A stretch of 58,337 nucleotides of DNA, filler included, from Sanchytrium tribonematis (lineage: Eukaryota), in the NCBI GenBank assembly GCA_018985235.1. It is 5 parts of 5 records of this genome, joined end to end, with 100 filler letters (N's around TTAATTAATTAA, not from the genome) between each part and the next. Parts side by side here need not be neighbours in the genome. Positions count along the whole stretch, not along the records: positions 23,526 to 35,132 come from JADGIG010000256.1; 4 more parts are not named here. One strand, given 5' to 3'. This document shows positions 12,771 through 55,620 of this stretch, piece after piece (positions within the stretch are counted from its first letter, which is position 1; each line of letters starts with the position of its first letter). A program made the translations under genes and the position numbers. Below the pieces are notes generated by a model. It saw nothing but the letters and a program-made list of their open reading frames with translations. It was not told where the DNA came from and did no database searches.

Positions 12771-12851
12771 ATAACCTATTTATGTTTATTGTTTAAATAA
12801 ATCAATTCAAAATTAAAATGTCACATTCAAAAAGCCACCTGGTAAAACGCG

Positions 12852-14768: not shown

Positions 14769-14780
14769 TCAATAAAATAT

Positions 14781-16007: not shown

Positions 16008-17951
16008 ATGCTCGTCATTTCTTTAGTTTATTCGACCATTGCTTCTGAATGCACTGCATTGGGATCTTTAGCAACTAGTCTAGGTGTATCAGGATACGAT
16101 ATTCCAACATGCTGCACTTTAAAAGGGATTTCGTGTAATATTGGTAATACGTCTATTACAAGCATCCAATTCAGTAGAATGGGCCTTAATGGATCATTTC
16201 CAGGGGCATTCCCATCTAATCTACCTTCTTTAACCACCCTCAATGTCAGTCATAATTTGATTTATGGATTTATACCAAATACGATTCCATCATATTGGGC
16301 CGTGTTTACAAGTTTAGATGTGAGTTATAATCGATTATCAGGTCCATTGCCCTACAATGTCCCGATTTCCATGTCGGTATTACTCGCAAATGACAATTTA
16401 TTGAGTGGAATGATCATTTCTTTAGATTGTAAAACAACCAATGTAGCCAACAATCATTTTAGCGGACAGTTACCACCCATGTCCAATGTTATCAAGTTTT
16501 ATGGTGCGAATAACTTTTTTAGTGGATCATTGCCAGCCATCACAAATGTTCAAATATTGGATGTGAGAAATAATCAGTTGGTTGGTTCTATCGGAATTAA
16601 CAATTTGAATATGCAAATAGATGTATCCATGAATCGATTGACTGGAATCTCTTTTATCAGTCCAAATGGCGCATATCAACTGAATTCATTGAATGTTTCA
16701 AAAAACATGATTTCAAATATGGCTTTGGTGCCAAATAACGTCAAAATTTTAGATGTATCGTATAATTTATTGACCAAAGTATTTACATTGCCAGGAAATA
16801 TCACCACATTTATTGCCAATAATAATGTATTTTCTGGTAGTTTGATTTCTACCGTATTCTTGTCTTTAAAATCAATCAATTATTTGGATGTATCTAACAA
16901 TCTATTCAATGGGTCATTTCCGAATATCCCATCCACCATCACGTATTTGGATATCTCTAATAATTCCTTTTCTGGTGATTTCCCAGTGCTTCCACTCAAT
17001 TTACAATATTTAGATGTTTCTACAAATCTATTGAGAGGGTTGCCCAAATTGCCATCCACATTGACTTATTTGAATGCGTCTCATGATTTGTTGAGTGGAT
17101 CTATTGAAATATTATCCAATGTTGCCACTGTAGATGTCAGTTTTAACGGATTTAATAGAATATTAAATGTGACTGTTGCTACAACTTATTTAGATGCATC
17201 TAATAATCAGTTTACGTCTATTTTCGTTAAAAATGCAACTCAATTGACATTTTGTAATTTAACAAATAATCCCAAACTCGGAGGAGATTTCTCAAATTTG
17301 AATGCGTGTATTTTCAATACCAGTCAACCATTACTGAATATGATCAGTACGAAAACAACCGTGACTGGTTCAGTTCAATTCAACTTTATCACATCCTCTA
17401 TTCAAATTGCCATTTCTTCCACGACTCAAATATCTGTCAAATCTGTCAAATTTACAGCCACCAACACATTCACAACTTCAACAGTGACTAGTCTATTATA
17501 TAAAATGTCAAGTACCAATACCATTGCTATTATTCCATTACAGACATCCATCATAACTGAATCATCAGATTTATCTACAAATCAATTCATCTCAGAAATC
17601 ATCTCAGAAATCAACTCAGAAATCAACCCATCTGCCATTTTACAAGATATCAAAATCATTAAAACAAGAATCATTTATAAAACATCCATTCCCATGGCCA
17701 TACCATCCAATCTATTTCAATCTACCCCATTTACCACTAAATTAACAAATTCAAGTGTATTCACTATTTCCACAATTCCCATCAAACCAAGTCAATTCAT
17801 TCCCAACCTCTCCCAATCCTCATTCAATGCATTTATGATTATTAAAATGGCATGTGATGTGATTTTATTACTGGTGATTTTAAAGAAAGTACCCAAACAT
17901 TTATTGATGAAAAAGAAAGTAGCGAGTAGTAAATTTGATACTTGGAAATAA
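16008..17951 (+). CDS. LRR receptor-like protein C (intact): signal peptide, Cys cap, LRRs, Ser/Thr stalk, TM
   Basis: MLVISLVYST signal; C..CC..C cap; repeated LDVSxNxLxG; C-terminal hydrophobic helix followed by basic residues. Confidence 0.9.
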   Translation: MLVISLVYSTIASECTALGSLATSLGVSGYDIPTCCTLKGISCNIGNTSITSIQFSRMGLNGSFPGAFPSNLPSLTTLNVSHNLIYGFIPNTIPSYWAVFTSLDVSYNRLSGPLPYNVPISMSVLLANDNLLSGMIISLDCKTTNVANNHFSGQLPPMSNVIKFYGANNFFSGSLPAITNVQILDVRNNQLVGSIGINNLNMQIDVSMNRLTGISFISPNGAYQLNSLNVSKNMISNMALVPNNVKILDVSYNLLTKVFTLPGNITTFIANNNVFSGSLISTVFLSLKSINYLDVSNNLFNGSFPNIPSTITYLDISNNSFSGDFPVLPLNLQYLDVSTNLLRGLPKLPSTLTYLNASHDLLSGSIEILSNVATVDVSFNGFNRILNVTVATTYLDASNNQFTSIFVKNATQLTFCNLTNNPKLGGDFSNLNACIFNTSQPLLNMISTKTTVTGSVQFNFITSSIQIAISSTTQISVKSVKFTATNTFTTSTVTSLLYKMSSTNTIAIIPLQTSIITESSDLSTNQFISEIISEINSEINPSAILQDIKIIKTRIIYKTSIPMAIPSNLFQSTPFTTKLTNSSVFTISTIPIKPSQFIPNLSQSSFNAFMIIKMACDVILLLVILKKVPKHLLMKKKVASSKFDTWK

Positions 17952-17953
17952 AT
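17905..17953 (+). repeat. 49-bp direct repeat copy 1 (3' end of LRR gene C)
   Basis: TGATGAAAAAGAAAGTAGCGAGTAGTAAATTTGATACTTGGAAATAAAT; 47/49 identical to 20545-20593. Confidence 0.9.
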
Positions 17954-17979
17954 AAACTTCACTCTTAAATTATATTTCA

Positions 17980-20425
17980 TTAAAATTTACTTACATTTGT
18001 ATCATAAAATGATCTAGATTGCTTGGTCCTTAGATTGCGCTCGTGTTTGATTAAATACGGCAATCCAGCAATCAAAATAGAATTGACAACCAATTTCACG
18101 ATGGATAGAATACTAAAGTTGAGAAATGCATTCAATTTGTAGTTTGGTTTGATATATAGATTGGCCATCGTGGTTTGGACCAATTTGGTTGAAGATTGAT
18201 CAATTATTGTTGAGGTTGCCTCTATCAAAATCTTTGAGCTAGTGGCCTTTAAAAATACTCTTCTGGTTAAAATAGACTCTAAATAAATGAGATTTACGCT
18301 GTAACTCAAAATCATTAGAAGTTGAAGAAATCACTTGTTTCAAAAAAGAATCTGACGCATTTACACAAATTCCCAAATCTGTCCTGTTTAAAATTGGATT
18401 CTTGGTGATATCACAGTACTTTAAAGTATTTGGTGCTGCAATATATACGTTTGAGATTAAATTATTGTATAAATACAAGTATTTGTCAGAACTTAATTCC
18501 AAAAATGCAATTTCACCACTAATCTGGTTAGAATCCACCTGGTCGGGCATTCCCAATAACAATTGCAACATATTGGGTGGTAGTATAGGTAAGACGGCAT
18601 TGATTTTGTTGCTTTGTAAATATAATCTGACTAAACTAGACGGAAATGGACCAGTCATATTTGTAAATTGATTAAATGACAAATCTAAAACTTCCACACC
18701 CTCTGGAATCAATGGAATCGTGCCACTCAATAAATTATTATTTAGATAAACGTGAGTAAGGACGCCAAAACCGGGTAATTCGCCACTCAATACATTATTT
18801 TGTACATAAAAATAGTCAGCTTTTGGTGGGATATATTTTAAACTATCAAATTGATTGTAATCAACGCTATAGCAAGAAGCATTTGGCGCCTCTGGTAATG
18901 TTCCATTGAATTGGTTTCCATCTAATACGATCGTATCTGCGTTTTCAAATTTCTCTTTGATTGGACCACTAAATTGATTGTAAAAAACCACTAGATAGAA
19001 CAATTTTGAAAAGTCCGGGAGTGCACCAATGATTCTATTATATGCAAGTCCAAGAATAACTAAATTGGGCGGGGTTTGGCCAGTAATTTTCACAAAGTTA
19101 TTATCAACCAAAGAAACAACAGTGATACCTTTTGGCAATAAATCCAGATTTAATGTAATTAAAGGACCAAATTGATTCAAATAATCCCAATCAATGCGAT
19201 CAACAATCCCTTGTTTACAATTAACATTTGTCATTAGACAACAATCTTGATTCAATAATTGATAGTAATTTGGCAGTGTGACATCCAGCTGCATTGATTT
19301 TGCAAATATAGCAAGTTGTTCACACCCATATTCCCTATTTGGAGATAAATTTGACTGGCAATTAATTGGTAAAACCGAGAAATTTGAAATTGGATTATTT
19401 TCAAAATTGCAAAAATTACCAGAACCACCAACTAAACATGCAGAACCAATTATATTTACACTTGAAATATTATTGTAAGTCGCATTCAACGCGCAATTGC
19501 TACTATAAATGCTAATTTCACCATAAAAATGATTATTTGAAATGTCCAAATTTTGAACACTTTCAGCGGACAACCAATTGGACATATTGCCCGTCAAACT
19601 GTTGTGACTGATAGTCAATTCTAATATATTGGTGACATCAGGTTCAAATAACCCACTTAGTTTGTTGTGGTCTAAATGCAAAAAATTTAAATTGGGCACC
19701 AAATATGGAATCATTCCAGTCAGTAAATTATGGCTAGCAGAGAAATATGTTAGACTACCAGGGAAGTTTGTAATATTACCACTCAACAGATTGTAGTCCA
19801 ATCGGATGGATTCTGCATTTGGAATCACTCCAATTGGCCCATAAAATTGATTATGCGCAAATGACCCCCTGATGAATGTTGCTGGTAATTTATTAGTCAA
19901 TGTACCATTCAATTGATTCATTTGACAGTATAATTCAGTGGTAGTATTCATCCTTGGTAAACCTCCGATAAATTTGTTATTTGAAACATCAATAAATGTT
20001 CCATAAAAATCAAAATCCAAATACCCGCTCAATTGATTCCTAGAAATAGCCAAATAATTTAAACTAGATGGAATAGTGGTATTAAGACTACCAGTTAATC
20101 TGTTACCGGTAATATCAAAAAACGACAAAGGTAATTTGAAGTTCAAATGTCCCGTCAAATCATTATAACTCAGAATCAAACCAAGCAATTTAGATGGAAT
20201 GACTAAATCTGTCACATCACCATTTAATCCTATCCGACTCCAATTAATATCCAAAACGTTTTCATTTGAACACGAAATATAGGTGATTTCCCAGCTTAAA
20301 CAACAATCTATTTTGATATTCGCGTACAAATGTGGTGCTGAACGATCTAGACCTAATTTTTGGGCCATTTGGATGACGATTTGACAATCTGAAATGACTC
20401 CGAAAATATAATAGAATAGAATCAT
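17980..20425 (-). CDS. LRR receptor-like protein D: two capped LRR modules, one 19-nt intron, C-terminal TM
   Basis: Start MILFYYIFGVISDC at 20425; caps DCQ...DCC...C and GCE...DCC...C. Splicing 18279-18297 joins track ORFs 18239-20503 and 17980-18315 (ELQ-QSILTRR) and restores the TM. Confidence 0.85.
18279..18297 (-). other. 19-nt spliceosomal intron GTAAATCTCATTTATTTAG
   Basis: GT-AG, phase 1; removal restores the frame to the family motif SILTR and the TM anchor. Confidence 0.8.
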
Positions 20426-20544
20426 TTTTCTAGAATCAAGCCACGTTGTTTCAAAACTTTTGAGATTTATAATATCTAAAATTTTTGACAGGATATCTTG
20501 CATCTATTGTGAATTACAAAAATGAGTAGCATTGCTATTTACCC

Positions 20545-20994: not shown

Positions 20995-21765
20995 CAGCGA
21001 GTCTATAAATTATTACAACTCTAAAATTTTAGTCATTTTACTTTCCCCCTTTATATTTTGTACTTTTTGAGAGCTTTTTGGCAAAATTTTGATCAAGCAT
21101 CGCACACATTTTTTAGCAAAAAGTAAAACAAATAGAGGGAAGGGACTGACTAAAAAGTGATCCTTTACAATGAAATAAATAATTTTTATGACAACCCGCA
21201 TCAATTCTGCTTCACTCGACGATGTCACAAAAGATATTGTGTTTCCCTTAGCGCCCCTACCTGCATTTCTTCCAGTCAAGCGACCATATAGTGAGGAAGA
21301 GAAAGAAAATCAACCCAAAGTTACTCCCAAAACTAAGAAATCCAAAAAACAGGACAAACCAAGAAAATCTGGGACCCAGATGAAGAGCGACTTCTCTCTA
21401 CATCCGTTTGCTACTGAAGGTGGTTAATTGAAGAAAGCAAAAAGTCATTCTGACAAGGTCAAATTTGAAAATTATCTTGTTCAAAAATTCAAATGCAGCA
21501 AATTTGAGCAAGTTAAGGGTAAAATTCGCCTTATTTACAACAAATACAAGGCAGAACGTGTTTAAAAGTCTGGATTAATGAAAGATCTGATTGGGAATTA
21601 TTTGAATTGTGTGCGGAGGTATTTGAAGAAAACGTTATTTGGAAACCAAGTTTGCTTTTGATGGAGGTAAATTGAACCATTTGGCAGATGATGGAATGAC
21701 ACAAGTTCAAAAGGCAAAGATATATTAATTTAGATGTCCAATCAATTGCCAGATGGAGACTTGCA
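20995..21765 (+). mobile_element. Truncated, degenerate copy of the left arm of the Harbinger element (TIR plus Myb/SANT-like gene)
   Basis: High nucleotide similarity to 41603-42436, starting exactly at CAGCGAGTCTATAAATT; has a frameshift and stops. Confidence 0.88.
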
Positions 21766-21903
21766 CGTCTTTGGAAGAAGCACTTGATGAAAACAAAACC
21801 CCAAATCGTACGTAAAATGGAAATGAATAATTTTCGAACATTCACTTTCATTTTGGGTCACCGATTCATTGAATTAACATCATAAAATCTATTTCTCCCA
21901 TTC

Positions 21904-22755
21904 TTGAGATCTTTTAAGGATTACTTTGAAAAGTCAATTTTGTATAAAAAAGATGCGTATTATCTACTGTTACACAATAATAAACAATTCAAGGAGTTAG
22001 AGGTTAAGAGTATTGTTCAATTCATTATTGATACTGGTGCAGTATATCGTGTGAAATTATGTAAGGATTACTTCAGTAAAATGTCCAAATTTTACGGACA
22101 ATCATACAAAAGAAGTTGCAAATTATCTGAATTGGAATTTCACTGTATTTTAAATGCATGGACAAAGCAGATTGATAATGTCGTGAATGATGCAACTAAA
22201 AAATTGAAGACAGAAAATATGTTTTACACAGACATAGACGCTGGAAATGAAATCATGAATGACATTGATGTACCTAAACCAAAATCAAAGCAAATAGATG
22301 ATGTGTCAATGTTTGAATTAAAAGAAGAGGAAGCAATAGATCAAAAGTAATTGGCAAACCAAGCAAATGAAAAACTGGCCAATCAAAATGATTTGCAAAA
22401 ATCTACTTCAAAGATGGACCAAATCAAATTGGTTATCGATGGACAAGTGACTTTCAAGAAATGGGATGAGAACTTAACAATTGCAGACAATGTCAATTCA
22501 ATTGAAATGCCAGTACAAACAGTAATTTGCAATTTGAAGCATATGAAAGATTATGAAACAATAGTACCAAAGAGTTGCACTGTGTTTATCTGTTGTCAAT
22601 GGAGACTGGACCATGAGATTGATGTGAAGAAAAAGAAAAAGAATTACAACCTGGCTGTTTCATCCCATACAATGGTTGACACTATCTTGCCATGGAGTGT
22701 ATTGAATAGATTGGATCATTATCATTCCAGTGATTATTTCTTGATCTTCCTCTAA
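21904..22755 (+). other. Two abutting in-frame ORF remnants of unknown origin (possible transposon relic)
   Basis: ORFs 21904-22350 and 22351-22755 are in one frame separated by a single TAA; HCILNAWTK weakly recalls MULE/FAR1 C-terminal motifs. Confidence 0.25.
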
Positions 22756-24293: not shown

Positions 24294-24518
24294 TATATGT
24301 TATCTTACATCAATCTATTTATCATTCTCTTAATAATCATTACACCAGTACTTATGACTTTTCAAATAAATTTATTGAAATCCATGTCAAGTAATTGAAT
24401 GCTGAGCCATTTGGTGAACAAACAGGAGTTTGGAAAGGTGCTTTAGATCTGTTTGAAGAGAAATTGAAATTGACGCAATAAAATTTTGTCCCCTATTGCC
24501 AAGTTTCTCAGACACACC

Positions 24519-26189
24519 ATGGAGTTACAATATAAATTTCTGAAAAACGATACAGAAAGTGAAATCTATTCCCTTTATTTCGAAAACATTCCTAAAGGAT
24601 ATGAATTTCTTATTAAAATCATTGAAAGGCATGACAATCTGAAACCATATGCAAAAAATGGTATTGGATTTTTTAAGAGCGCAAAGATTGATGTTGCAAA
24701 TGAGCTTGTCAAAGGAAAACTCATTAATGTCAACATGGTTTTTGTGCATCTTCCACAAATGCTGTTGATGGATGCTTTACCACCCTTAACGATCAATAAC
24801 CTCTCAACAACTAAACCCAAAAGCAAATCTTCCTATGCCAATATCTTCTTCAAAATTCAATTGAGTGATTTCAAAATATTATATCAATATGAAAAACACA
24901 ACTTGCATGATATAATCTGGAACTGGGATCAATTGTATTGCCACAGCGCGATCGATCTTACAACAATAGTTTTTGATGTAATGAAAGCTTGTATAAAAAT
25001 GGGCAATTTAGATCATGTTTTGCAACTAAGATTGGGGCAGTACTTTCCAGCTTCCAGCCTTTACTCTAATTACCAAAAGCCAGTTGACATTTGCATTCAA
25101 AAACGTATTTCATTAGAAATAATTGGGGTTTGCGATGTTAAGATTCCTCATCCTAAAAAATCTCTTAATGATCTTACTCATTATGAAATCTTGGACTATA
25201 TGATTGATTTGAGAAATTCTTACCATGTTCGCTTTCCGTATGGTATTTTCACGACTTATTATGAATGGAGAATCTTTTGGTTTGAGGACAGCGACATTCC
25301 ATCAAAATTGACAGACAAATATGCCTTTGATGAATATTGTGAGAATACCAAAGATAGTCAGTGTGGGATTGAAGGAAATATTAAAGTATATATGTCTAGA
25401 ATCTACAGGTACGACGAATCAGATCTGATAGAATTATTAGTGAGCCTTATGTACAAAGTCAGTCAGACACCAACTTCAATTCCGAATAGACTAGCACAAA
25501 TTCAATTAAAATATGTCCACGTTTCTTCAAACTCACTTGAATTCAAATCACTTCCAACAAATTTTATTAAAAATGAAACCCCATTTTCATACGACATGCC
25601 AAGTGCACGTTGTACTCAATTTTACATTTTAAATTGGAACCATAGGGGTGGAGATGGAACTGTAGCCATTTGTTGCTCACCAAATGGTAATTTGGGGGTA
25701 TTAAAGTTTTTTCATAATTTTGAAAATGAAAATGAAATAATCAACGAAAGAGACCGTTGGAATCTATTGTGGGCCACCAATTGTCGCATTGTCAAGGCCA
25801 ATAATAAAACAGCACTTTTGATGCCGTTTGCAATTCATATCAGGACCATTGAAAATCAGCACATATTTTGTGGATTAAATTTTTGGAATAGTCGACAAGT
25901 TGAAAGTCCACAATTTTTGGAATCAGAAATGTGCATCAAAATTGGAATGGAAATCTTAAAAAATTATCAGGCAGAACCTCTTGAAGTTTTTAAATCTGCT
26001 TACCAAGAAATGCTAAATGCAAATATTGTTCATGATGACATCAAATGGTCTCATGTTGCACTTTTACCAGTCAAAATCAGAAGTGGTTATAAATTAAAAC
26101 CAATCTTGATAGACTTGACACGGACAAGACCTTTGACAGATCCTAAAGAAATTGAAATGGAACGCGCCTTGAAGGAACTTGATGAATAA
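24519..26189 (+). CDS. Crinkler-effector-like protein: restriction-endonuclease-like domain plus kinase-like C-terminal domain
   Basis: PVDICI...IIGVCDVKIP (PD-(D/E)xK-like), ILDYMIDLRN...YGIFTTYYEWRIFW, then GGDG, VLKF, IVHDDIKWSHV and ILIDL. Confidence 0.6.
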   Translation: MELQYKFLKNDTESEIYSLYFENIPKGYEFLIKIIERHDNLKPYAKNGIGFFKSAKIDVANELVKGKLINVNMVFVHLPQMLLMDALPPLTINNLSTTKPKSKSSYANIFFKIQLSDFKILYQYEKHNLHDIIWNWDQLYCHSAIDLTTIVFDVMKACIKMGNLDHVLQLRLGQYFPASSLYSNYQKPVDICIQKRISLEIIGVCDVKIPHPKKSLNDLTHYEILDYMIDLRNSYHVRFPYGIFTTYYEWRIFWFEDSDIPSKLTDKYAFDEYCENTKDSQCGIEGNIKVYMSRIYRYDESDLIELLVSLMYKVSQTPTSIPNRLAQIQLKYVHVSSNSLEFKSLPTNFIKNETPFSYDMPSARCTQFYILNWNHRGGDGTVAICCSPNGNLGVLKFFHNFENENEIINERDRWNLLWATNCRIVKANNKTALLMPFAIHIRTIENQHIFCGLNFWNSRQVESPQFLESEMCIKIGMEILKNYQAEPLEVFKSAYQEMLNANIVHDDIKWSHVALLPVKIRSGYKLKPILIDLTRTRPLTDPKEIEMERALKELDE

Positions 26190-26347
26190 ATTGAATTTAG
26201 GTAGTTGGCTTAATGCGATAGCTTGTCGTTCAATGTTTTTAATTTAGACACTTTGTTGTTAAATTGAGCCTTGATTTTGATTGAGAAGTAAAATTTAATT
26301 ATAAATCTTGGTGTAATTGCATTATAATGGGTTGTAGAAGATTTAAA

Positions 26348-26659
26348 TTAAAAGAATTTTCTAATGTTATTCTGTGCAAACTTGATATTCTCCTCAACCA
26401 AGCACTTAGCACGAGGTTTTCTAAATTTATATCTTTGAACCTTGATTTGTAGATCTCTTATGATAACTTTTATTTCCTCTTTCCGCGTCTTTGATAATTT
26501 CCATGGTGTTGTAGTATCAATCAAAGCTCTTCCATACAGCTCACTTGAAGCTTTACAAATATCTGATATTATTTGTGCCTGCATGTATCTTTCTTCCATG
26601 GTGAACGGATTAGCAACAGCACATAATTTAAAAGTAACAGCTAAATCATCCAACCACAT
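26348..26659 (-). CDS. Small hypothetical protein or remnant
   Basis: 103-aa ORF; no family recognised. Confidence 0.3.
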   Translation of the reverse strand: MWLDDLAVTFKLCAVANPFTMEERYMQAQIISDICKASSELYGRALIDTTTPWKLSKTRKEEIKVIIRDLQIKVQRYKFRKPRAKCLVEENIKFAQNNIRKFF

Positions 26660-26963
26660 CCCTTTGTTTTGACTTCAGAAAAATTCGATATTTAGCCATC
26701 TGGACAATCATAAGTCTACTTTTTTGGATGAGTATGTATGCTTAATTATATTTAAGTTTTTAAATGAAGTATAGAAATTAGAAATTAAACGATTTTGTAT
26801 ATTCGCTTTTTTTTTAAATAACTTGTTCATCGTTTCTCAAATAGGTAGACAGTGTAGGACTGTAGCTATTGGATATTTGTCAAGGTAATTCAAATTTAAA
26901 ATTGCAATGTGGATGTTTTGTGGAAAAATAAATAAAATTTTGAAAAAGGAGTAAACATTGGAG

Positions 26964-28850
26964 ATGGCTGAATTTCCAGCAGTTTTGCCACTCAATGGGT
27001 CTATTTGGCAATCACTACTAGAGCAATATAGTGAAGACCACCAATTAATATCACAAATATTCACTCACGTATTAAAATCACCATTAGATCCTATTTATCA
27101 ATTGTACATTGAATACATAAAACGTACTCAACCTAATTTCCTTCAAGACGCATATCAATATACAACCACACAATTAAAATATTCTTATTTCTCACAAGTT
27201 TATCAAGATTACATCAGTTTATTGCCAACAGACGATATGAATAAAATTAGAAATGTTTATAAATCATTATTTGAATATCCAAGATATAATTTAAGAGAAT
27301 CTTTTCAAGTCTATTCTCAATTCGAATCTAAAGATGTTATTGGTACAAATCAATTACAGGATATGACTAAGCAATTTGAGCATAATCATTTATTATTCCA
27401 AGATGTTGAACCCATTTTAAATGCATTTCAAAAAGACCCAACCCCTCAATTGGCCCATGAATTGGTTAATATTGAATCCAAAAACATTCCAAATTATTCC
27501 GATGAGATATTTCATCAGCGTATTTCTAATATTTATCAATGGTGTTTATCATTTTTACCAATTACGAATGAATTGCATTATTGGTTATTTATTGTCCGAT
27601 TTTTAATACACATTAAAAATGAGGAACAACCAGAAATCGTAGATGCTACAACCAAATTGGGTGATTTATCTGTTCCAATTATTCCACAATCTTGTAATGA
27701 ATGGTATTCTATATTTATTCAATACGCAATCCATCATTTAAAGGAATGTCCAAATGCCATCCTTATACTTGCGATTGCTACTCAATTTAGATATCCAATT
27801 GAACCATTATTTGAATTTATTACTCCAAATCATATGATTCCATTTATGGCGCTCAGTTGCATCACTATGCGATCAACAGATTTATCTTCTTTTAGATCTT
27901 ACTTTAGCCAATTTAGAAAATGGTTAAATCAATGTCAATTTGAACCACATATTTTGTCATATTCACTTGGTGTCTTTAGCACATCAGCTTATTGTGAATA
28001 TCTCAATAAATCAGATGACACAATACAAGCACGTATTTTCGAGTTGGGAATGAAGTATTTAAGCAATTTATTAACACATCACACTGAAGAAAGGCAATTA
28101 ATTGTGGATAATGCGATTCAATATTGTAATACGTATTTGGACTGGTTAAATGATATTGGGGATGTGGATAATATGAAATCGGTATTGACGAGATGTTTGC
28201 AGTTGGGTATTGATAGAAAGTATCATTCAACCTGGATTTTAACGAGTTTAAAAGCTGCAATGAAACATGGTGATCATAATTGGATGACTCAATTACAAGG
28301 GACTGTTTCTGAGTATAGAAAAACGAAGGAATGGGAAGTAAAGAACTTGGAGTCCGCCGACTATAATGGCACTTGTTTGCTTTATTATTACTTGAAAATG
28401 TGGAACCAACACGGATTTAATATTTGGCAATTAATTGGGAAAGAAATTGAAAGTGAAGAAAATTTACTATATTTCTTGGCAGGTAAAGAAAAGCAAGTGG
28501 CACCTAAACCTATAGAAAGAAGAGAATATGATAGAGGATATGAAAATAAAGAACGATATGAAAATAGAGAAAATCGAGATAATCGAGACAGATCTTATGA
28601 TAATAGAGACAGATCTTATGAACCTCGTCAAGAAAGAGAAGGAAGAATTAGAAATCCTTCAACTCGGTCACATCAAAGCAGTGATCATTCTTCTCCTTTG
28701 GGAATGCCTAATAGTGATTTGGTGTATGGTTTATTGATTTCACTTCCTAAAGATCCTTGGACTGGTCCAATAGTTGATGTGCAGCTACTTATGTACCAAA
28801 TTAAGAATACGCCACTGGGTCAAAGGCCAATGAAAAGAAAAAGACATTAA
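26964..28850 (+). CDS. RNA14: mRNA 3'-end processing HAT-repeat protein Rna14/CstF-77 (divergent)
   Basis: HAT-like helical repeats, ARIFELGMKY, C-terminal LISLP...GPIVDVQLL; RD/RE-rich linker. Confidence 0.7.
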   Translation: MAEFPAVLPLNGSIWQSLLEQYSEDHQLISQIFTHVLKSPLDPIYQLYIEYIKRTQPNFLQDAYQYTTTQLKYSYFSQVYQDYISLLPTDDMNKIRNVYKSLFEYPRYNLRESFQVYSQFESKDVIGTNQLQDMTKQFEHNHLLFQDVEPILNAFQKDPTPQLAHELVNIESKNIPNYSDEIFHQRISNIYQWCLSFLPITNELHYWLFIVRFLIHIKNEEQPEIVDATTKLGDLSVPIIPQSCNEWYSIFIQYAIHHLKECPNAILILAIATQFRYPIEPLFEFITPNHMIPFMALSCITMRSTDLSSFRSYFSQFRKWLNQCQFEPHILSYSLGVFSTSAYCEYLNKSDDTIQARIFELGMKYLSNLLTHHTEERQLIVDNAIQYCNTYLDWLNDIGDVDNMKSVLTRCLQLGIDRKYHSTWILTSLKAAMKHGDHNWMTQLQGTVSEYRKTKEWEVKNLESADYNGTCLLYYYLKMWNQHGFNIWQLIGKEIESEENLLYFLAGKEKQVAPKPIERREYDRGYENKERYENRENRDNRDRSYDNRDRSYEPRQEREGRIRNPSTRSHQSSDHSSPLGMPNSDLVYGLLISLPKDPWTGPIVDVQLLMYQIKNTPLGQRPMKRKRH

Positions 28851-28959
28851 TAAACAAAATTCATTAACTGATATTGATTTGTCAATAGTAATATTGAGGA
28901 AACATAGTTCTAATTTAAAAATTTAGGCTAGTTTTAGAAAAAGGAGCTTTTTTGAAACT

Positions 28960-29881
28960 ATGTCCAATTCCAGTGCTCAAAACGGTGCTCAACTATCCCT
29001 CTTTCATCCATTATTAAAGGAAGCCATCACATCAATCCAAACAGATCCAACTATTGTGGTTGATGCCGTCATCGTGGATTTTGATAACACCCAATATCAT
29101 GTCAATTACCCAGGCTCGGGCGAATTAGTATTTAGCATGATGTTAAATGGATTTACTTATATCAAACAATTTGTTAATTTATCTGAATACAAAACAATGG
29201 AAACAGAAGCAAATTATTCTTTCACTATTGGAGTTAAGAAAGAACAATTACAAAACATACCTCAATTAAAAATGAACTTACTGGGCCAAGTAGCATTACA
29301 CCACTATGAAAAAGGTACCTCTATTATTTATCCAACTCAAAATAACTTTTTAAACATGCAAAACAATCAAGTGAACATTTCCCAATATCCTGGTGAATTT
29401 GTACTTTTGAAAGGGGAGAAAGAGAGATTATCAATTGTATTCAAGATTGTATTTGACGATGGAAATGATGATGGAGTTGCTAAATTATTCATTCAAGAAT
29501 TGATAGATGCCCGTAAATTGGTTGGTCTTCAAGGTACCCCACAAGTTTTGTACAACAAAGAAATCCCATTGGAGCTAAAACCATACGCAAGTGGTGCTTC
29601 TTCTCAAGCTACTGGTATTTATTTTTAATTTAGGATATTCCTCATATGTCACATTTAGTGTATTCCCTCAACACATTCAAAAAAACAAAGTAGAACAACT
29701 TGCTAAACTCTTGATGTTTAGAAATTATTTGCAATATCATATTAAATGCTCTAAAGCATATTTACATACTCGAATGAGATCAAAGGTAGGTGACTGGCTA
29801 AAAGTTTTAAATCGTGCTAAATTGGAGACTGCTGCATCTGATGTGCGTGTCACAGCCAGTGGAAAAACCTTTCGAAAATAA
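28960..29881 (+). CDS. ARPC2: Arp2/3 complex subunit 2 (p34-Arc/Arc35), two exons
   Basis: DFDNTQYH, FIQELIDAR, PQVLY; after the 19-nt intron YVTF, FRNYLQYHIKCSKAYLHTRMR, VLNRAK, TASGKTF. Confidence 0.95.
29615..29633 (+). other. 19-nt spliceosomal intron GTATTTATTTTTAATTTAG
   Basis: Contains the in-frame TAA that ends the first ORF; removal gives ACT G|GA TAT (T-G-Y) and a full-length conserved ARPC2. Confidence 0.9.
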
Positions 29882-29885
29882 ATAT

Positions 29886-30197
29886 ATGATTTTAAAAGGC
29901 CAATTTTGTATGTCACTTATGGAAATCGCTGCTCAAAAATATGATTTAAATTATTATGGGACAATCTATGGAGTTCTACATGACTATAAAATACTAGTTA
30001 AGGATGGAATCATCAAAGTCTTGATTAAGGAAGAGTGGGTCGATATTTCTTCGACTGAGTTGCATTTAGAATTGGGAAATATTGATGGACCATTCAGTGG
30101 TGATTTAACACATACTTGTGGAAGTCATAAGGAATTAGAAAGATTGTTTGCATTTATTCATACACATCCTCGCAATTACACAGGATTTGGAGTTTAG
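29886..30197 (+). CDS. Small hypothetical protein
   Basis: 103-aa ORF starting 4 nt after the ARPC2 stop. Confidence 0.45.
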   Translation: MILKGQFCMSLMEIAAQKYDLNYYGTIYGVLHDYKILVKDGIIKVLIKEEWVDISSTELHLELGNIDGPFSGDLTHTCGSHKELERLFAFIHTHPRNYTGFGV

Positions 30198-30691
30198 TAA
30201 ATCAAATTAAGAACTTTGACAAAAATAGTTTCTAAACTTGTCAGCAGAGATAATTCGCCAGAAACAGTCGGATGTTTTCTGTCCATCTATTACAGTCTTT
30301 TGTTACAATATGCAATTTTGTATTTTCCATCCGTCTCTTCTATCCATTTCTCATCTTCCGTTTCTCTAAAAATCATCAAATGTGAGCGCCGTAGTCAGGT
30401 TTGTAAACACCACGAGGAATGACTGCAACACTTCAAGACATTTAACAAGGTTGTTGTGGTATACAAGAAAATGATTCCTACTGTTGATACATTCAGTCCA
30501 TCCAAGATGGTTCATCTAGATACACTGGGATTTTATCCCAAATATAACCTGTACAAAAAAATGTCATTTCCAATTCTATACGTAGATTAATATCAAGCAT
30601 ATGCGATTGCCTGTACAGATGCTACTCGAAATTATGAAACAAGGCTGAAAATCTGCTGCCTCTAAATAGACCCAAGAAATAATGAGATTCT

Positions 30692-31669
30692 TTAGTCTCT
30701 ACGACTCACCCATGCAACAACCCATTTCACATTTGTCAAAAATGATTTGCATGCCTTTCCCCATTTATCATCAAATGTACATTGGATTGTCAAATGATTA
30801 ATAGTATCTTTAAATATTTTATAGGGAACTGTAAATCGATCATCCAAATGTGATATCGAATTTTCAATTTCTAACAAGCATTCTAGCAATCCCACCAATG
30901 CTCTGTTGTAATTTTGACGTTGAAAAACAAACATGGCAAATGTCTCAGTTTGATAATACAATGGATAAGATTTCTTATCTTCAAGACTCACTAATCTTGA
31001 ATAACTACCAAGTGCCTGAATCTCCCATTTGAGAAATTTTAAATTTAATTTTTGAGCAACAATATTGAAAAGTAGTGCACAATATCCGAAAGCGGCATTT
31101 GTTTCTAACCAGTCATCGGTTGTTTTACTTTGACCCATTCTACATCCCACAATACTTGCAAATCCGCTCATTTCCCCAATTTTAAATACTTCTTTCAACA
31201 CGCCTTGATCAACTGTGTTTTGTAAAAATTGATATTGTTCTGTTGCTTTAACAACTTTGGCATTTAAAGAGTGTCTGTGTTTCTTGAATTGATACAATTC
31301 CTCTTGATGTTTGTTGTATTCAATAAAATATTGCTCTTCTTGCTCTTTTAGCCTTTCTTCTTGTTGTTCTAAAGCTTCATGTTCTTTCAATAAAGTAGAA
31401 TATTCTTGATCTAGAGATTGTCGTTGACCAATTAGTTGATGATACTCACGATTTAATTCATTTAAAGCATTTTGATCGAATTCTCCTGCATTGGCCATTT
31501 CAGTATTCATAAATTTTTGACAAGTTTTTAATGATTTTTGAAGTAATGATAATTGAGATTTTAATTGATTAACTTGCTGATCTGCACACTGACTACAAAG
31601 CGATAATCTGGAGGGCTTTAGTGGTACTGAGCATTGATTGCAAATAGATATTTCAGAAGGCGCATTCAT
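30692..31669 (-). CDS. ATG6: Beclin-1 / Atg6 / Vps30
   Basis: CxxC pairs, long coiled coil, BARA motifs FASI, WLETNAAFGYCALL, LGSYSRL, WGKACKSFLTNVKWVVAWVS. Start taken as MNAPSE (31669); the track starts at 31735. Confidence 0.93.
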   Translation of the reverse strand: MNAPSEISICNQCSVPLKPSRLSLCSQCADQQVNQLKSQLSLLQKSLKTCQKFMNTEMANAGEFDQNALNELNREYHQLIGQRQSLDQEYSTLLKEHEALEQQEERLKEQEEQYFIEYNKHQEELYQFKKHRHSLNAKVVKATEQYQFLQNTVDQGVLKEVFKIGEMSGFASIVGCRMGQSKTTDDWLETNAAFGYCALLFNIVAQKLNLKFLKWEIQALGSYSRLVSLEDKKSYPLYYQTETFAMFVFQRQNYNRALVGLLECLLEIENSISHLDDRFTVPYKIFKDTINHLTIQCTFDDKWGKACKSFLTNVKWVVAWVSRRD

Positions 31670-31831
31670 TTTGATGAAACAATGCTCACGGAGATTAGAT
31701 ATTTGACTCATATGGCAGTCTAACATTTGAGGCATATCTTATTCTTGTATAGCTTTATCTAAGAACCTTAGATACTTGAAATCAGGTCATAGTATTTATT
31801 TCTAATTAAATGTGGCTTATTTGAGATTATC

Positions 31832-32908
31832 ATGAAAAGTGTTTCTGTTTTAATATTTATAGGTGCCATCTGGCTACTGGTTATAATTAACCAATACTCA
31901 AGTCCAGCTTTATTGGAAAAGCCAGAGAGAATATTTAATCAAAAATGTGGTGGCCCAGGATTCTCCTCTGGTAAATATGAGGTCCATGAAATCATTAAAG
32001 AAGTTAAAGCAGATTGTCCTCTTATTGAGCAACACAATCCAAAGCATGAAGAAGAATCTTGCAATGTCGAAGAATGTAGGGCAAAATCTGGTAATTGTAA
32101 TAATAATAAGTGCGAATGGGATTCTGGTTGGTCATTGAAAGTTGACGAATTTAATCCACCATCAGCAAATCATTACTCATGGGAAAAGAAAGGTTTGACT
32201 CCGGAAAAGCTCAGCAAGCACGATTCAAAATCAATTCCTCCTATTTTCCATCAATCTTGGAAAAATAAAGATGTCCCTGATCGGTATATTGAATGGGAAA
32301 ATAGTTGCATTAACCATCACAAGCACTGGGATCACATATTATGGACAGATGATGATAACAGGCAATTGGTGGCATCCGAATATCCTTGGCTTCTTTATAC
32401 TTATGATCGGTTAAAAACACCAATTATGAAAGCTGATTACATCAGATATGTTTATTTATATCATTTTGGTGGTATATACGCAGATTTGGATGTTGAATGT
32501 TTGAAACCAAGTGATGAATTGATCAAAGATCGCATAGTTGTTCTTGGTGAGCTTGGAGACGACAGAGGATTTGTACACAACATTCCGAATGCTATTCTGG
32601 CATCCAGAAAAGGTCATCCATTTTGGCTGTTCCTGCTGAACAGAATATCCATGCTGGTACATCAACAAGGATGGACTGAAGAAGTAACTGGCCCAATTAT
32701 TTTACGAGATTCTTATTTGCTCTTTCAAAAATTCAAAAATTATAAAAATGATTTTTATGTGGCACCATCAAATCTACTTTATGGAGTAGATTGGCATCGG
32801 CCACCTGCAAATTGTGTTGCTGCGTTTGGACAACATCTGGACACTGATAGTTGCAAAAAACTATTCCCAGATGCTTATATGATAACTTATTGGACACATT
32901 CATGGTGA
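31832..32908 (+). CDS. GT32 glycosyltransferase (Sur1/Csh1/Och1-like), type II membrane protein
   Basis: N-terminal TM; IPPIFHQSW, LWTD, KADYIRY..LY..GGIYADLD (DxD), HPFW, TGP, SW. Confidence 0.92.
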   Translation: MKSVSVLIFIGAIWLLVIINQYSSPALLEKPERIFNQKCGGPGFSSGKYEVHEIIKEVKADCPLIEQHNPKHEEESCNVEECRAKSGNCNNNKCEWDSGWSLKVDEFNPPSANHYSWEKKGLTPEKLSKHDSKSIPPIFHQSWKNKDVPDRYIEWENSCINHHKHWDHILWTDDDNRQLVASEYPWLLYTYDRLKTPIMKADYIRYVYLYHFGGIYADLDVECLKPSDELIKDRIVVLGELGDDRGFVHNIPNAILASRKGHPFWLFLLNRISMLVHQQGWTEEVTGPIILRDSYLLFQKFKNYKNDFYVAPSNLLYGVDWHRPPANCVAAFGQHLDTDSCKKLFPDAYMITYWTHSW

Positions 32909-32992
32909 TTTAATAAAAGCTTCACAATAAAAATTGAAATACAAAACAAAATACACTAAACTTGCTCCATTTTAGCTCCTTGTCTGAATATT

Positions 32993-34915
32993 ATGGATTA
33001 TATGCATCCAAGCAAAAGGCGCAAAATAGCAAACAAATTTTATGGAGCTGCTAATCTTAACACAACAAGAGCGATGTTGCTGCAACAAAGAGATGCCGAA
33101 TATGAAAAATTGGAGAGATATTTACAATACCAAATGTCTCACGTTGAATATAGTAAGGAACGATTTCCATTGATATGCTGCTCTGGTCCTCCAGGTATAG
33201 GTAAAACACGATTTCTTCTGGAATTACCGGATCAAGTCCTTAAAACCGAAACAGGTGTAGCGTTTATAGGAATTACTTTACTGCATTGCAATTTACTTTG
33301 TGATATCACCAATGTTTTGTGGAAAAAGTTGCTCGAAGCAATTGTGGGTGAAACATTTCAATTTCAACCTGATCAAGTAGGTGCTGATTTACTTGTTGGG
33401 GTACTTCAGAAAGAGTCTAATATTAAACGAGTTGTAATACTCGTTGACAAATACAACACCGTACGCGAACTTCTGAAAGAGTTTCTATCTGCTATTGCTA
33501 AAATTCAAAGGCAACTTTGCAGTAATAATTTACCGACTCATGTAATTCTTAGCGGCACGGATCAGTATGAGCTGTCAAGGCAGGTTACCGCAAGTGGGAA
33601 CCTGGTGCTATCAATTGATTTGCCCTACTTAAATTTTAATTCGGTTCTCAATATTTTTAAAGATAGTGGTATAAATTACGATTTTGTTTTAGTGATCTAC
33701 ATGCAAACTTTGGGAATACCGGGACTCGTTCAATATTGCTATAATTGTTTTCAAGATGGAAATTCCGCGTGTAAGATGCTCAATTGTCTAAGTAGCAAAG
33801 ATTTTATGCGACTATTTTTGAATGCTTACAACAATTCTATTGATTATACTAAACTGTGTCATACTGCGATTAAAGAGGAATTAGGCCATAAAGTAGAAAT
33901 ATTTACAAACAAAATTACCACTAATCCGACATTGCTCAAGGCTTGTTTGTTTGATAAACCACTGACAAATGAAATGAGAATCTTTATCAACACAGGTGTA
34001 GCTTATGGAACTTTAGAAAAACCTTTTTTGCCAAGGTTATATCTCGAATCCCTTTCCAAATCAGACTGCGTCTTGAAGTTGTTGGTAGACTCTTTCTCAA
34101 GTGAAGTTAATCAATTTAAAAGCTTAATTTATGGCAAGCTGGTGTTGCACTGCAGATATTCGATACAATCATCTGTATTTCGGGGTGCAAGTATTTGCTG
34201 GGAGAGCATTATGTGTGGCACAACTAAGAAGAAGGTACAAATCTCCAATCTGAATAATATCTGTTGTGATAATATTTTTGATGGTAAGAATTTTATTAGA
34301 AAGCCTCAGATATTGACACTCTTAGACAATTATTTGTTACTGGTCCGGAACGAAACAGAATTATTTGATATAATTTTAAATATTTCAAATACCACAATAT
34401 ATTTTATACAGTGCCAATTTATTAAAAGAAAATTCAAGTCACATTTTGAAGAGAGCTATGAAAAGTTCAAGACTATAAAGAATCAAATGTTAAAATTTGA
34501 CTTAAATTGGAAATTTATTGCTTTTTCCACAGATTCTTTGAAGATTAAAGATAAATCATTGTCATTTGATGATAAGTTTTTGTTTATCAATGGTTCAGAG
34601 TGCGAATCTTTTATTGGTTTCAACTTGAGTAATATACTTCTTCTTTGTACCTCTGCCAATGGATATCACCCTGCCATTGTGGATTCTATTACCAGGCTTA
34701 AGCATAAATTTTCAAAAGAAACGGCAAGAAAAGTGGTGGAAAAAAGAAATTTAATTTGGGATAAAGAACGACGAATAATCGACATAGGGGATTTAATGGG
34801 ATTCAATTTCACCAAAGATGTAGAGAACCAATTATTCTTACAAAGCGAAGAATCAAGCTCGGAACCAGAGGAAGACTATGAAGATGAAGTGAGTTCCATT
34901 TCAGAAAGCGATTAA
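32993..34915 (+). CDS. Crinkler-like P-loop NTPase with probable C-terminal REase-fold domain
   Basis: Walker A GPPGIGKT, Walker B-like VILVDK, GIPG motif, LFDIIL...FIQCQ; N-terminal basic PSKRRK; acidic tail. Confidence 0.6.
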   Translation: MDYMHPSKRRKIANKFYGAANLNTTRAMLLQQRDAEYEKLERYLQYQMSHVEYSKERFPLICCSGPPGIGKTRFLLELPDQVLKTETGVAFIGITLLHCNLLCDITNVLWKKLLEAIVGETFQFQPDQVGADLLVGVLQKESNIKRVVILVDKYNTVRELLKEFLSAIAKIQRQLCSNNLPTHVILSGTDQYELSRQVTASGNLVLSIDLPYLNFNSVLNIFKDSGINYDFVLVIYMQTLGIPGLVQYCYNCFQDGNSACKMLNCLSSKDFMRLFLNAYNNSIDYTKLCHTAIKEELGHKVEIFTNKITTNPTLLKACLFDKPLTNEMRIFINTGVAYGTLEKPFLPRLYLESLSKSDCVLKLLVDSFSSEVNQFKSLIYGKLVLHCRYSIQSSVFRGASICWESIMCGTTKKKVQISNLNNICCDNIFDGKNFIRKPQILTLLDNYLLLVRNETELFDIILNISNTTIYFIQCQFIKRKFKSHFEESYEKFKTIKNQMLKFDLNWKFIAFSTDSLKIKDKSLSFDDKFLFINGSECESFIGFNLSNILLLCTSANGYHPAIVDSITRLKHKFSKETARKVVEKRNLIWDKERRIIDIGDLMGFNFTKDVENQLFLQSEESSSEPEEDYEDEVSSISESD

Positions 34916-40447: not shown

Positions 40448-41011
40448 CTATTCTTTCAATGGGAAGTCTCCAATTAAATACTACAGCATGTTGCACAAAC
40501 AACTCCATCCAATTTCACAATCCAATCAAATCTGTAAAATCCAGTCACATGCGTCTCCTGTGTATTGATCACACGGATGAAGCTGAAGCTATAAAATATT
40601 ATGAGATTGTTGTGTATAATTTGAAGTCGTTGACATAGATATTTATTCGGGGATGTCCCGTTTATATGTGTTTCGGTCTTTTAATTGATTGGTTCCCTTA
40701 TATATCACAAGTCTTTGTAATATATAAGAGCCAATCAATAATCTCTCAAATCCCCTCGTGACCCCTCGTGACCCCCCTTGGGTCTACAGGGTCAAAACTG
40801 CTCCCGTCGGAGTATGTCTTGCAACAGAGATTGCTTTAGAATTGGGAGATACAGATGCTAAAGATCAAATTGATAAGATACAAAATGCATCAAACACTAA
40901 CTGCATCCTCCAATAAATACATCTATTATTTATTTGTGGACGAGTTCGAGACATTAATAGATTCTGGGGTCTATTGGTATATGTGGACGGTAGAGAGTGT
41001 ATTGAAGATGA

Positions 41012-54241: not shown

Positions 54242-55199
54242 TTATTGTTCATCAATTGCCATTCTGTTGATGGTTCTTCTACTTGCATTCTCAATTGCAC
54301 TTTTTAAGCCATGATCAAAGTTTCTTAGACATAAACAGGCATTGACTGTGGTTAATCCGACGATTATGAGTGACAAAACAGCTAAATAAATGAAAAATAC
54401 CAAAAAATGTCAGATAATTACGCACATTTAAATATTTCAATTCTTGAGTGGCATCGTACATTCTGACTAATTTAAACATGAAATAAGCCAGTGCTAAGAG
54501 GGTTAAAAAAATGAAGCAGATCATTAAAACCTTGTTTTCTTTTTTTAATGCTTTGGAGGCTACAAATAAGATGATGACTGTGCAAATGAGTGCAGCAATG
54601 GTCAAATACATCTCAACATCTTGGACTTGGAGGACTAGAATCATGAATTGTAAACTGAAACTCACAAAAACAAAGAAACATGCTTTTAACAGCATTAAAA
54701 AGATTTGGTATGTTCTATACATTTGCTTCATTCTTGGATCTGCTCCTATTTTCTTGTATACTTTCCAACCATATTCACAATATAGTTTAAAAGTCAAAAA
54801 TCCACTAATGACAGCAAATACGGCTAATAATACACAAATAGCAAAGAAATAGCCACTATAACTTTGCCAAATATTGGTGACTTGACTCACATCTTTGATT
54901 TGAAAGAGAGAATATCCAAAACTAGCAACATTCATGCCCACCCAAGCAAATAATTGAATGGTATTTTCATTTGCAATGGCATCCCAACTAAAATAGATTT
55001 GGAATAATTGACCAAATATAAATATAGCTAGATAGACTGGTAATCCACGCAGAGGCTCCGCTTTATTCTCTAATGAGATCTTGGGGACTAGTTGGGCTGC
55101 AATGACTATTTCAAGGATAATGATGCAGACTGCTTGTAATACTGCTGTCATTAATGCTGCTTTAGAGTAATTAGAAAGTTTGTTGGGAAAAACTTTCAT
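54242..55199 (-). CDS. UPF0658-type fungal multi-pass (Golgi) membrane protein, two exons
   Basis: ENTIQL, LYCEYGWKVYKKIGAD, Y..YQIF..LLK; after splicing 54382-54400: YLTFFAVLSLIIVGLTTVNACLCLRNFDHGLK...RMAIDEQ stop. Confidence 0.85.
54382..54400 (-). other. 19-nt spliceosomal intron GTATTTTTCATTTATTTAG
   Basis: GT-AG, phase 1; removal restores the last TM helix and the NFxxGLK motif. Confidence 0.88.
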
Positions 55200-55620
55200 C
55201 AAACAGTGTTTTGAAATCAAAAAAGTAAAATGACGTTTGGACGCTTTAATTGACCTAGTTTGACGACGTATGGTTGAAGTGACTCGCATAGTGACAAGCT
55301 GTAGACTGGTAGCGTATAAGGAGATACAAATAAGAACAATATCAATTGATTTTAAGAATTATTAATCCAAACTCCATATCTCTTGAAACATTATTTCAAA
55401 TGTGGGTCGTTTCATTTCAAATTCAATCAGCGTGATGACTAGTAATCCAATGAAAGTAATGCAAAACTGGCAAGCAGCAAGTATATTGGGCAAGTCTTTT
55501 GCCATTTCAAATATCCAATAAAATCATTTTCTAATATTCTCAATCGAATAACAGAACAAGAACAAAGAGAAAACAGAAGTTCAATCAATACAAATAGATG
55601 CAGGGGTTCGATATCTCAAA

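What the first reader, a model, noticed from the sequence alone, without database searches (positions are those of the whole stretch)
29615..29633. Ultra-small 19-nt spliceosomal introns in three unrelated genes
Seen: three frame breaks are each repaired by removing exactly 19 nt bounded by GT-AG: ARPC2 29615-29633 GTATTTATTTTTAATTTAG, UPF0658 54382-54400 GTATTTTTCATTTATTTAG, and LRR-D 18279-18297 GTAAATCTCATTTATTTAG. They lie on three different contigs, are all phase 1, start GTA and end ATTTAG. I found no well-supported longer intron. Known: introns this small occur in heterotrich ciliates (Stentor, 15-16 nt) and chlorarachniophyte nucleomorphs (18-21 nt), far below normal fungal sizes. Inference: this fungus-like organism has a spliceosome working on near fixed-length tiny introns that standard gene predictors would miss. 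I cannot confirm whether this is already reported for the lineage.
Basis: partly seen in the sequence, partly recalled or inferred. Interest (0 to 1): 0.92.

Follow-up and report, generated by a model that had tools for sequence, protein, structure and literature searches.

The report
19-base introns in a sanchytrid fungus
Conserved genes of this fungus, likely a sanchytrid (a small group of algal parasites), are broken by 19-base GT-AG segments that are likely spliceosomal introns, shorter than any fungal intron in the papers I found, and relatives break at the same places, but no RNA was available to show the splicing.

Summary
The three 19-nt GT-AG segments are where stated, on three contigs, all phase 1. 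Closest named homologs are sanchytrids (Amoeboradix, Sanchytrium). DUF7789/UPF0658: of 1037 frame-restoring deletions, the GT-AG 19-mer scores best against 18 outside homologs. ARPC2: it is the best splice-site-bounded repair and gives 300 aa, but homology alone does not fix the length. All 6 close orthologs of the two genes stop just after the same glycine; their tails decode to GTA donors, and three fit 20-nt introns with A six bases from the end, the Stentor branch-point spacing. The LRR case is contested: 3 of 4 close paralogs share the break, one reads through it as coding. A reduced U2 spliceosome acting on shrunken ancestral introns is the likely mechanism; Amoeboradix keeps core spliceosome genes. 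No RNA, genome or relative DNA was available, so splicing, branch site and genome-wide lengths are inferred. Tiny introns are known in ciliates, mikrocytids and nucleomorphs, and this scan noted them in Rozella and Bonamia; nine literature searches found none reported for sanchytrids.

The parts
28960..29614 (+). ARPC2 (Arp2/3 p34-Arc) exon 1, 218 codons plus one base
   Evidence: Pfam PF04045 profile 28-173; PDB ARPC2 residues 30-212 of 1k8k_D
29615..29633 (+). 19-nt phase-1 GT-AG intron; in-frame TAA at intron nt 12-14; predicted branch A at 29628 (six from the end)
   Evidence: best GT/GC-AG repair, rank 28 of 673 among all repairs; 3 of 3 close orthologs stop after the same Gly
29634..29881 (+). 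ARPC2 exon 2 to stop; spliced product 300 aa
   Evidence: Pfam profile 178-242; PDB residues 221-298; length
54401..55289 (-). DUF7789 / UPF0658-like membrane protein exon 1 (from the first ATG of the frame)
   Evidence: 22 homologs, 76-79% to the three closest; weak PF25044
54382..54400 (-). 19-nt phase-1 GT-AG intron; predicted branch A at 54387
   Evidence: top score of 1037 frame-restoring deletions against 18 outside homologs; 3 of 3 close orthologs stop after the same Gly
54242..54381 (-). DUF7789 exon 2 (last helix and tail); spliced product 342 aa
   Evidence: aligns without a gap at the junction to Allomyces, Blastocladiella and chytrid homologs
18298..20503 (-). LRR-D exon 1 (leucine-rich repeats and start of Ser/Thr stalk)
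   Evidence: PF00560; close paralogs P0028-P0031
18279..18297 (-). 19-nt GT-AG element, likely intron but contested; predicted branch A at 18284
   Evidence: same break in P0028, P0029, P0030; read through in frame in P0031
17980..18278 (-). LRR-D downstream frame (stalk, predicted membrane helix, short tail); spliced product 834 aa
   Evidence: 98 open codons homologous to the C-terminus of P0031

Best explanation
The 19-base GT-AG segments that break the ARPC2 and DUF7789 genes, and probably the one in LRR-D, are likely U2-type spliceosomal introns of a sanchytrid-like fungus, predicted to branch at an adenine six bases from the 3' end. Shown: the segments, the frame breaks, their repair, and the same break in relatives. 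Inferred: the donor is little more than GTA; the A at intron position 14 attacks the donor to give a 14-nt lariat loop with a 5-nt tail; the AG is then chosen by its fixed short distance from the branch A, as proposed for Stentor (loop 10-11 nt, tail 5 nt). Length varies on the 5' side (19 here, 20 decoded in relatives) while the 3' geometry stays fixed. At least the DUF7789 intron is inferred to be an old intron position shrunk by deletion in a compact genome, because two chytrid gene models also break at this codon. Introns are sparse: 2-3 frame-breaking ones in 58 kb.
For: DUF7789: best of 1037 deletions is the GT-AG 19-mer (2816, tied only with its 1-nt-shifted equivalent; best 1-nt fix 2648, best 16 and 22 nt 2669 and 2628); 15 of 18 outside homologs gain 34-77 score units on splicing. 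ARPC2: exon 2 holds the conserved C-terminus (E 7e-20); the 19-mer is the top GT/GC-AG repair; it gives a 16-residue loop (93 of 101 homologs have 10-16), a 1-nt fix would give 22 (2 of 101 reach that). Relatives: 6 of 6 close orthologs (60-79% identity) end 1-5 residues after the junction Gly; in 6 of 6 the next codon starts with A (GTA donor; 0.33^6 = 0.0014); 3 of 6 stop at intron nt 18-20 with an AT-starting codon just before (TAG acceptor, A at -6; 0.117^3 = 0.0016); 2 of 6 stop at nt 12-14 like the window's ARPC2 intron. LRR: 3 of 4 paralogs, down to 57% identity, share the break and their tails decode to the downstream frame (0-1 of 300 shuffles reach the score). Amoeboradix has PRP8, SF3B1, both U2AF-type subunits, SF1/BBP, PRP16/PRP22-type helicases, SNRNP40, SNU13 in the published eggNOG table. 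Stentor branch A is at 10 of 15 and 11 of 16 (PMC9505925 passage).
Against: No transcript, lariat or spliced sanchytrid protein was seen. Relatives are known only as proteins: the decoding assumes a GGT glycine, was noticed after the fact, the sequences are related, and P0004 could be 23 nt if the preceding Gly is the donor. ARPC2 homology alone prefers a 28-nt removal without GT/AG ends (14780 against 14111). P0031 reads through the homologous 19 nt as coding, and against it a 1-nt deletion 11-14 nt upstream scores better than the intron (357 against 323). The assembly has other frame breaks with no such motif (ZNFX1-like helicase, LRR-B/C, transposase), so plain indels do occur here. The branch A is assigned by position only.
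Confidence: 0.86

Rival explanations
1. The breaks are assembly errors or dead genes, and the GT-AG ends are chance.
For: Other frame breaks without the motif exist in the window; in-frame stops too. For LRR-D a 1-nt fix matches paralog P0031 best.
Against: An error would not recur at the same codon in 6 of 6 orthologs from other assemblies; DUF7789 needs 19 nt removed, not 1; the downstream frames stay open and conserved.
Confidence: 0.03
2. Only for LRR-D: the 19 nt are coding, and an old one-base insertion upstream, shared by four paralogs, removes the membrane anchor or is bypassed by ribosomal frameshifting.
For: P0031 (879 aa) is one open frame through the element; one of three other window LRR paralogs also has a hydrophobic run at this place.
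Against: The break is shared at 57% identity while 98 codons downstream stay open and conserved; the Arg codons that carry GT and AG are kept in 4 of 4 broken paralogs while the middle varies; a loose motif match at a given break is expected about 0.2% of the time (4 chance matches in 116.7 kb, about 70 usable bases). P0031 may instead have lost or not yet gained the intron.
Confidence: 0.27
3. The frames are joined without splicing, by +1 ribosomal frameshifting or transcript slippage on the T/A runs.
For: All three are 3n+1 nt, so a +1 shift restores the frame; they hold T runs.
Against: It would add six residues that DUF7789 homologs lack and make the ARPC2 loop 22 long; it does not explain GT-AG ends; the 20-nt cases decoded in relatives would need a different shift.
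Confidence: 0.04
4. The segments are removed, but by a non-spliceosomal nuclease-ligase route such as Ire1 (HAC1 introns of about 19-26 nt in fungi; recalled, no call).
For: Similar length (recalled).
Against: No CNGCNG motif within 15 nt of any junction (motif recalled); canonical GT-AG ends; unrelated genes; spliceosome genes retained in the lineage.
Confidence: 0.02
5. They are real introns but lie at the short tail of a broader length range, so the genome has no fixed-length system.
For: Only 3 sequenced cases; no genome was held; longer introns were not searched beyond 40 nt except at the three breaks.
Against: 3 of 3 in the window are 19 nt on separate contigs; 5 of 6 decoded relatives fit 19-20 nt. 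This rival keeps the best explanation's core and only removes the 'near fixed length' part.
Confidence: 0.22

Closest known systems
Heterotrich ciliate introns (Stentor coeruleus, 15-16 nt; PMC9505925, passages read)
   Same: GT-AG, AU-rich, GTA start, TAG end, branch A predicted six from the end (5-nt tail); most genes intronless; Slu7 and Prp18 not found there.
   Different: 4-5 nt longer here, so a 14-15-nt lariat loop; a fungus, an independent origin; no RNA support yet.
Chlorarachniophyte nucleomorph introns (18-21 nt) and mikrocytid introns (16-17 nt) (PMC10245619, abstract and section 7 read)
   Same: Same length class, narrow range, reduced genomes.
   Different: Nucleomorph introns are dense (over 800 in about 300 genes); here 2-3 in 58 kb. 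Those lineages are an algal remnant nucleus and rhizarians.
Short introns of microsporidia and Rozella (PMC6349667, passages read: Encephalitozoon introns about a third of 76 nt; Rozella about 30 nt)
   Same: Closest fungal-side precedent; parasites with compact genomes.
   Different: About 25-30 nt with, in microsporidia, conserved donor and branch motifs; here 19-20 nt with no extended branch motif; sanchytrids are sister to Blastocladiomycota (PMC8371127 section 6), so the shrinkage would be separate.
Myxozoan and dicyemid ultra-short introns (median 22-27 nt; PMC13644364, part 1 of 3 read)
   Same: Parasite, opisthokont, reduced splice signals, conserved positions.
   Different: Longer by 2-8 nt at the median; animals.

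Membership tests
U2-type spliceosomal intron | GT...AG ends | tested here: met
   3 of 3
U2-type spliceosomal intron | Removal restores a conserved reading frame at exactly those ends | tested here: met
   DUF7789 exact; ARPC2 best among splice-site-bounded repairs only
U2-type spliceosomal intron | Same test for LRR-D | tested here: inconclusive
   3 of 4 paralogs share the break, P0031 reads through
U2-type spliceosomal intron | Position conserved in relatives | tested here: met
   6 of 6 close orthologs truncated at the same Gly, seen at protein level only
U2-type spliceosomal intron | Branch adenine used to form a lariat | not testable with these tools
   A at -6 in 3 of 3 window segments and compatible in 5 of 6 decoded relatives; use not shown
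U2-type spliceosomal intron | Absent from mature mRNA | not testable with these tools
   no RNA run could be laid on the region
U2-type spliceosomal intron | Spliceosome present in the organism | tested here: inconclusive
   core proteins listed for the relative Amoeboradix; no snRNA in this 58-kb window; own genome not held
Fixed-length tiny-intron systems (Stentor, mikrocytid, nucleomorph type) | Nearly all introns of the genome fall in a 2-4-nt range at or below about 21 nt | not testable with these tools
   3 sequenced at 19 nt, 5 decoded at 19-20 nt; no genome
Ire1-type (HAC1/XBP1) intron | CNGCNG loop motif at both cut sites, non-GT-AG ends (recalled) | tested here: not met
   no motif near any junction
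Sanchytriomycota (lineage of the host genome) | Closest homologs are sanchytrid; about 35% GC; standard code | tested here: met
   best named hits are EukProt Amoeboradix gromovi (65%, 76%) and Sanchytrium tribonematis (57-88%), next-best DUF7789 hit 44%; GC 27-40% per kb; no tree was built

The most novel reading that the evidence does not exclude
Sanchytrids splice, genome-wide, only introns of about 19-20 nt with a branch A fixed six bases from the end: the shortest spliceosomal introns of any fungus or animal, convergent on the Stentor geometry, possibly without Slu7 and Prp18, and overlooked because their genomes were annotated without introns. A bolder extra (about 0.25): signals this weak let coding sequence turn into an intron, as the LRR family with one read-through paralog may show.
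Probability: 0.6. Interest if true: 0.75.

Novelty: new variant of a known kind. Interest (0 to 1): 0.63.

Why it matters
The lower size limit of a spliceosomal intron, and how a lariat of 10-15 nt fits the active site, are open questions studied so far in ciliates, rhizarians and nucleomorphs. A fungal case would be a further independent origin, close enough to yeast that spliceosome proteins and snRNAs can be aligned with well-studied ones, and it repeats the 5-nt branch-to-acceptor tail, which hints at a physical floor. Practically, sanchytrid proteomes in public collections hold truncated or split proteins (ARPC2 lacks its last 82 residues in all four entries seen), so counts of gene loss in this phylum may need a second look.

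Tried and rejected
No whole genome is held, so no length histogram. No RNA holder was listed for 24400-34300; this is no evidence either way, and no reads could be laid. DNA of relatives: metagenome scans with ARPC2 exon 1 and with the four-sequence alignment gave nothing; viral contigs nothing; prokaryote genomes one 31% match, L001, judged irrelevant. No full-length sanchytrid-like ARPC2 or DUF7789 was found among proteins of the searched lengths. Rfam: no match in the window. The raw count of GTA...TAG at 19 nt (34, highest of lengths 12-59) was not used: most of those lie inside open frames. Other short candidates (9192-9210, 13743-13767, 26421-26440, 50572-50587) lack homology support and were dropped. 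The helicase break near 4825 has no GT-AG repair of 12-40 nt and looks like a one-base loss. Window LRR paralogs did not settle the LRR-D question: two have polar residues before the conserved motif, one a hydrophobic run. Earlier scan notes: none on this genome or on sanchytrids.

Full report
Observation. The window is five contigs of about 11.6 kb joined by N-spacers, and the segments lie on three of them. Each is phase 1, starts GTA, ends ATTTAG and joins two long frames when removed. The motif count is not evidence by itself: GTA-N10-ATTTAG occurs 3 times, and lengths 16 and 30 also give 3. The weight comes from where they lie.

Lineage. ARPC2 exon 1 found 4 proteins among 81 candidates: the window's own and three at 61-65%, one labelled Amoeboradix gromovi. 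DUF7789 exon 1 found 22 of 1674: own, three at 76-79% (one Amoeboradix), then Allomyces at 44%. The four closest LRR homologs are labelled Sanchytrium tribonematis. GC is 27-40% per kb, against about 35% published for sanchytrids (PMC8371127 section 6). I infer a sanchytrid or a close relative; no tree was built.

DUF7789 (UPF0658-like). I scored all 1037 deletions of 1-49 nt (3n+1) starting within 30 nt of the site against the 18 outside homologs. The GT-AG 19-mer is top (2816, tied with its one-base-shifted equivalent; next 2775; best 1 nt 2648, 16 nt 2669, 22 nt 2628). The spliced protein aligns across the junction without a gap, and 15 of 18 homologs gain 34-77 units; the other three (P0013, P0018, P0020) end or diverge at or before the junction. 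P0013 (Quaeritorhiza) and P0020 (Gonapodya) leave the alignment at this very codon, which suggests an old intron position mis-modelled in those chytrids; that is inference, their DNA was not seen.

ARPC2. Exon 1 matches residues 30-212 and the downstream frame residues 221-298 of solved ARPC2; Pfam gives profile 28-173 and 178-242. The spliced product is 300 aa. The junction is in a variable loop, so homology does not fix the length: among 673 repairs scored against 101 of 149 homologs with both anchors, a 28-nt removal without splice ends is best (14780) and the 19-mer ranks 28th (14111), though first among GT/GC-AG repairs (next 13479). Its loop of 16 is within the 10-16 of 93 of 101 homologs; a one-base fix would give 22, reached by 2 of 101.

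Relatives carry the same breaks. All 3 close ARPC2 and all 3 close DUF7789 orthologs stop 1-5 residues after the junction glycine. Read as retained introns: the codon after the glycine starts with A in 6 of 6, giving GTA (0.0014 by composition). In P0004, P0006 and P0007 the stop falls at intron bases 18-20 with an AT-starting codon before it, which fits a 20-nt intron ending TAG with A at -6 (0.0016). In the two Amoeboradix proteins the stop falls at bases 12-14, as in the window's ARPC2 intron, where that TAA supplies the A at -6 of a 19-mer. P0003 stops at 6-8 and says nothing on length. These figures are after the fact, assume a GGT codon and treat related sequences as independent, so they are indicative; P0004 could be 23 nt. 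Still, an assembly error cannot recur at one codon in several assemblies.

LRR-D is the weak case. P0028 (88% identical), P0029 and P0030 (57%) break at the same element; the arginine codons that would carry GT and AG are kept in all four broken copies while the middle varies, and their tails decode to the downstream frame (against the window's: 23 of 25, 17 of 41, 13 of 22 identities; 0, 1 and 0 of 300 shuffles reach the score). The window's downstream frame is open for 98 codons and homologous to the membrane-anchor end of P0031. But P0031 reads straight through the homologous 19 nt, and against it a one-base deletion 11-14 nt upstream beats the intron (357 against 323; unspliced 187). Either P0031 lost splicing or has an indel, or the intron arose from coding sequence after a frameshift, or the element is coding and four paralogs share an old frameshift. 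I put the intron reading at about 0.7. Other frame breaks in the window have no such motif, so indels do occur.

Mechanism. Shown: ends, phase, frame repair, shared breaks. Inferred: U2-type splicing with a minimal GTA donor, a branch A six bases from the end, a 14-nt loop (15 in the 20-mers) and an AG picked by distance. Stentor has the branch A at 10 of 15 or 11 of 16, a 5-nt tail (PMC9505925, passages). In yeast Slu7, Prp18 and Prp22 are not needed for step 2 when branch and acceptor are under 7 nt apart (PMC3392075, passages; 9 nt or fewer for Slu7 in PMC10158995, passages), and Slu7 and Prp18 were not found in Stentor. The Amoeboradix eggNOG table lists PRP8, SF3B1, both U2AF-type subunits, SF1/BBP, PRP16/PRP22-type helicases, SNRNP40, SNU13 and cactin; 'slu7', K12817 and K12819 (identifiers recalled) gave no hit, but the file is cut and such annotation misses fast-evolving genes, so this is a lead only. 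Two or three introns in 58 kb would scale to a few hundred in an 11-Mb genome; that is rough and misses in-frame and 5'-end introns.

Comparison and novelty. Introns this small are described in heterotrich ciliates (15-16), mikrocytids (16-17) and nucleomorphs (18-21) (PMC10245619, abstract, passages and section 7). Among animals the shortest median is 22 (PMC13644364, part 1 of 3). On the fungal side, Encephalitozoon introns are about a third of 76 nt and Rozella's about 30 (PMC6349667, passages); a fungal survey's passages give no smaller class (PMC8476143). The sanchytrid genome paper predicted proteins with TransDecoder on contigs and uses 'intron' only in a reference title, 'splic' not at all (PMC8371127, outline, passages, sections 6 and 18); PMC10459994 likewise (passages and part 1 of 5). 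Nine searches (listings only, apart from the papers named) showed no report of sanchytrid spliceosomal introns. The library lacks most subscription journals, and two supplements of PMC8371127 (the main PDF and one spreadsheet) were too large to read, so a prior mention cannot be excluded. Earlier AI notes of this scan describe 26-29-nt introns in Rozella and about 20 nt in Bonamia, none in sanchytrids; I did not test them.

Verdict. Observation confirmed; interpretation well supported for two genes, likely for the third, unproven genome-wide and at the RNA level. It works like the Stentor and nucleomorph tiny-intron systems; membership in a fixed-length system could not be tested. New variant of a known kind, interest 0.63.

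Noticed in passing
window 28907-28926 (+): 20-nt AT-rich GTT...ATTTAG segment 33 nt upstream of the ARPC2 start codon; possible 5' UTR mini-intron, or chance.
   Followed up: no
window 1174-6773 (-), break near 4825: ZNFX1-like helicase with RZ zinc finger split by a frameshift just after the Walker A motif, with no GT-AG repair; looks like a one-base loss, error or pseudogene.
   Followed up: partly
window 11775-20503 and 40971-41252: Cluster of plant-receptor-like LRR proteins with Ser/Thr stalk and a predicted C-terminal membrane helix; best outside hits are weak plant receptor-like proteins. 12797-14768 is frameshifted near 13745-13800 without the intron motif.
   Followed up: partly
window 47458-51237 (+) and 21886-22755 (+): Kinase-Sel1 protein with an MLKL-like N-terminus whose Sel1 repeats continue past an in-frame TAA at 51052; a second in-frame TAA at 22348 between two open frames. 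Nonsense change, error or read-through unknown.
   Followed up: no
window 42721-44113 (-): Harbinger-like DDE_Tnp_4 transposase in two frames with a duplicated 25-residue segment; flanking block 41621-42400 resembles 21013-21857.
   Followed up: no
window 26955-28850 (+), 30692-31738 (-), 8679-9191 (-), 53840-54226 (+): RNA14/Suf, ATG6, glutathione peroxidase and cytochrome b5 are single open frames, so the genome is intron-poor.
   Followed up: partly
PMC8371127 supplementary file 4, rows 1135-1136: Amoeboradix SF1/BBP (K13095) is split over two adjacent ORFs of one contig, as an unmodelled intron would cause.
   Followed up: no
P0013 and P0020: Public chytrid gene models of DUF7789 leave the alignment at the same codon as the window's intron, likely mis-modelled introns at an old position.
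   Followed up: partly
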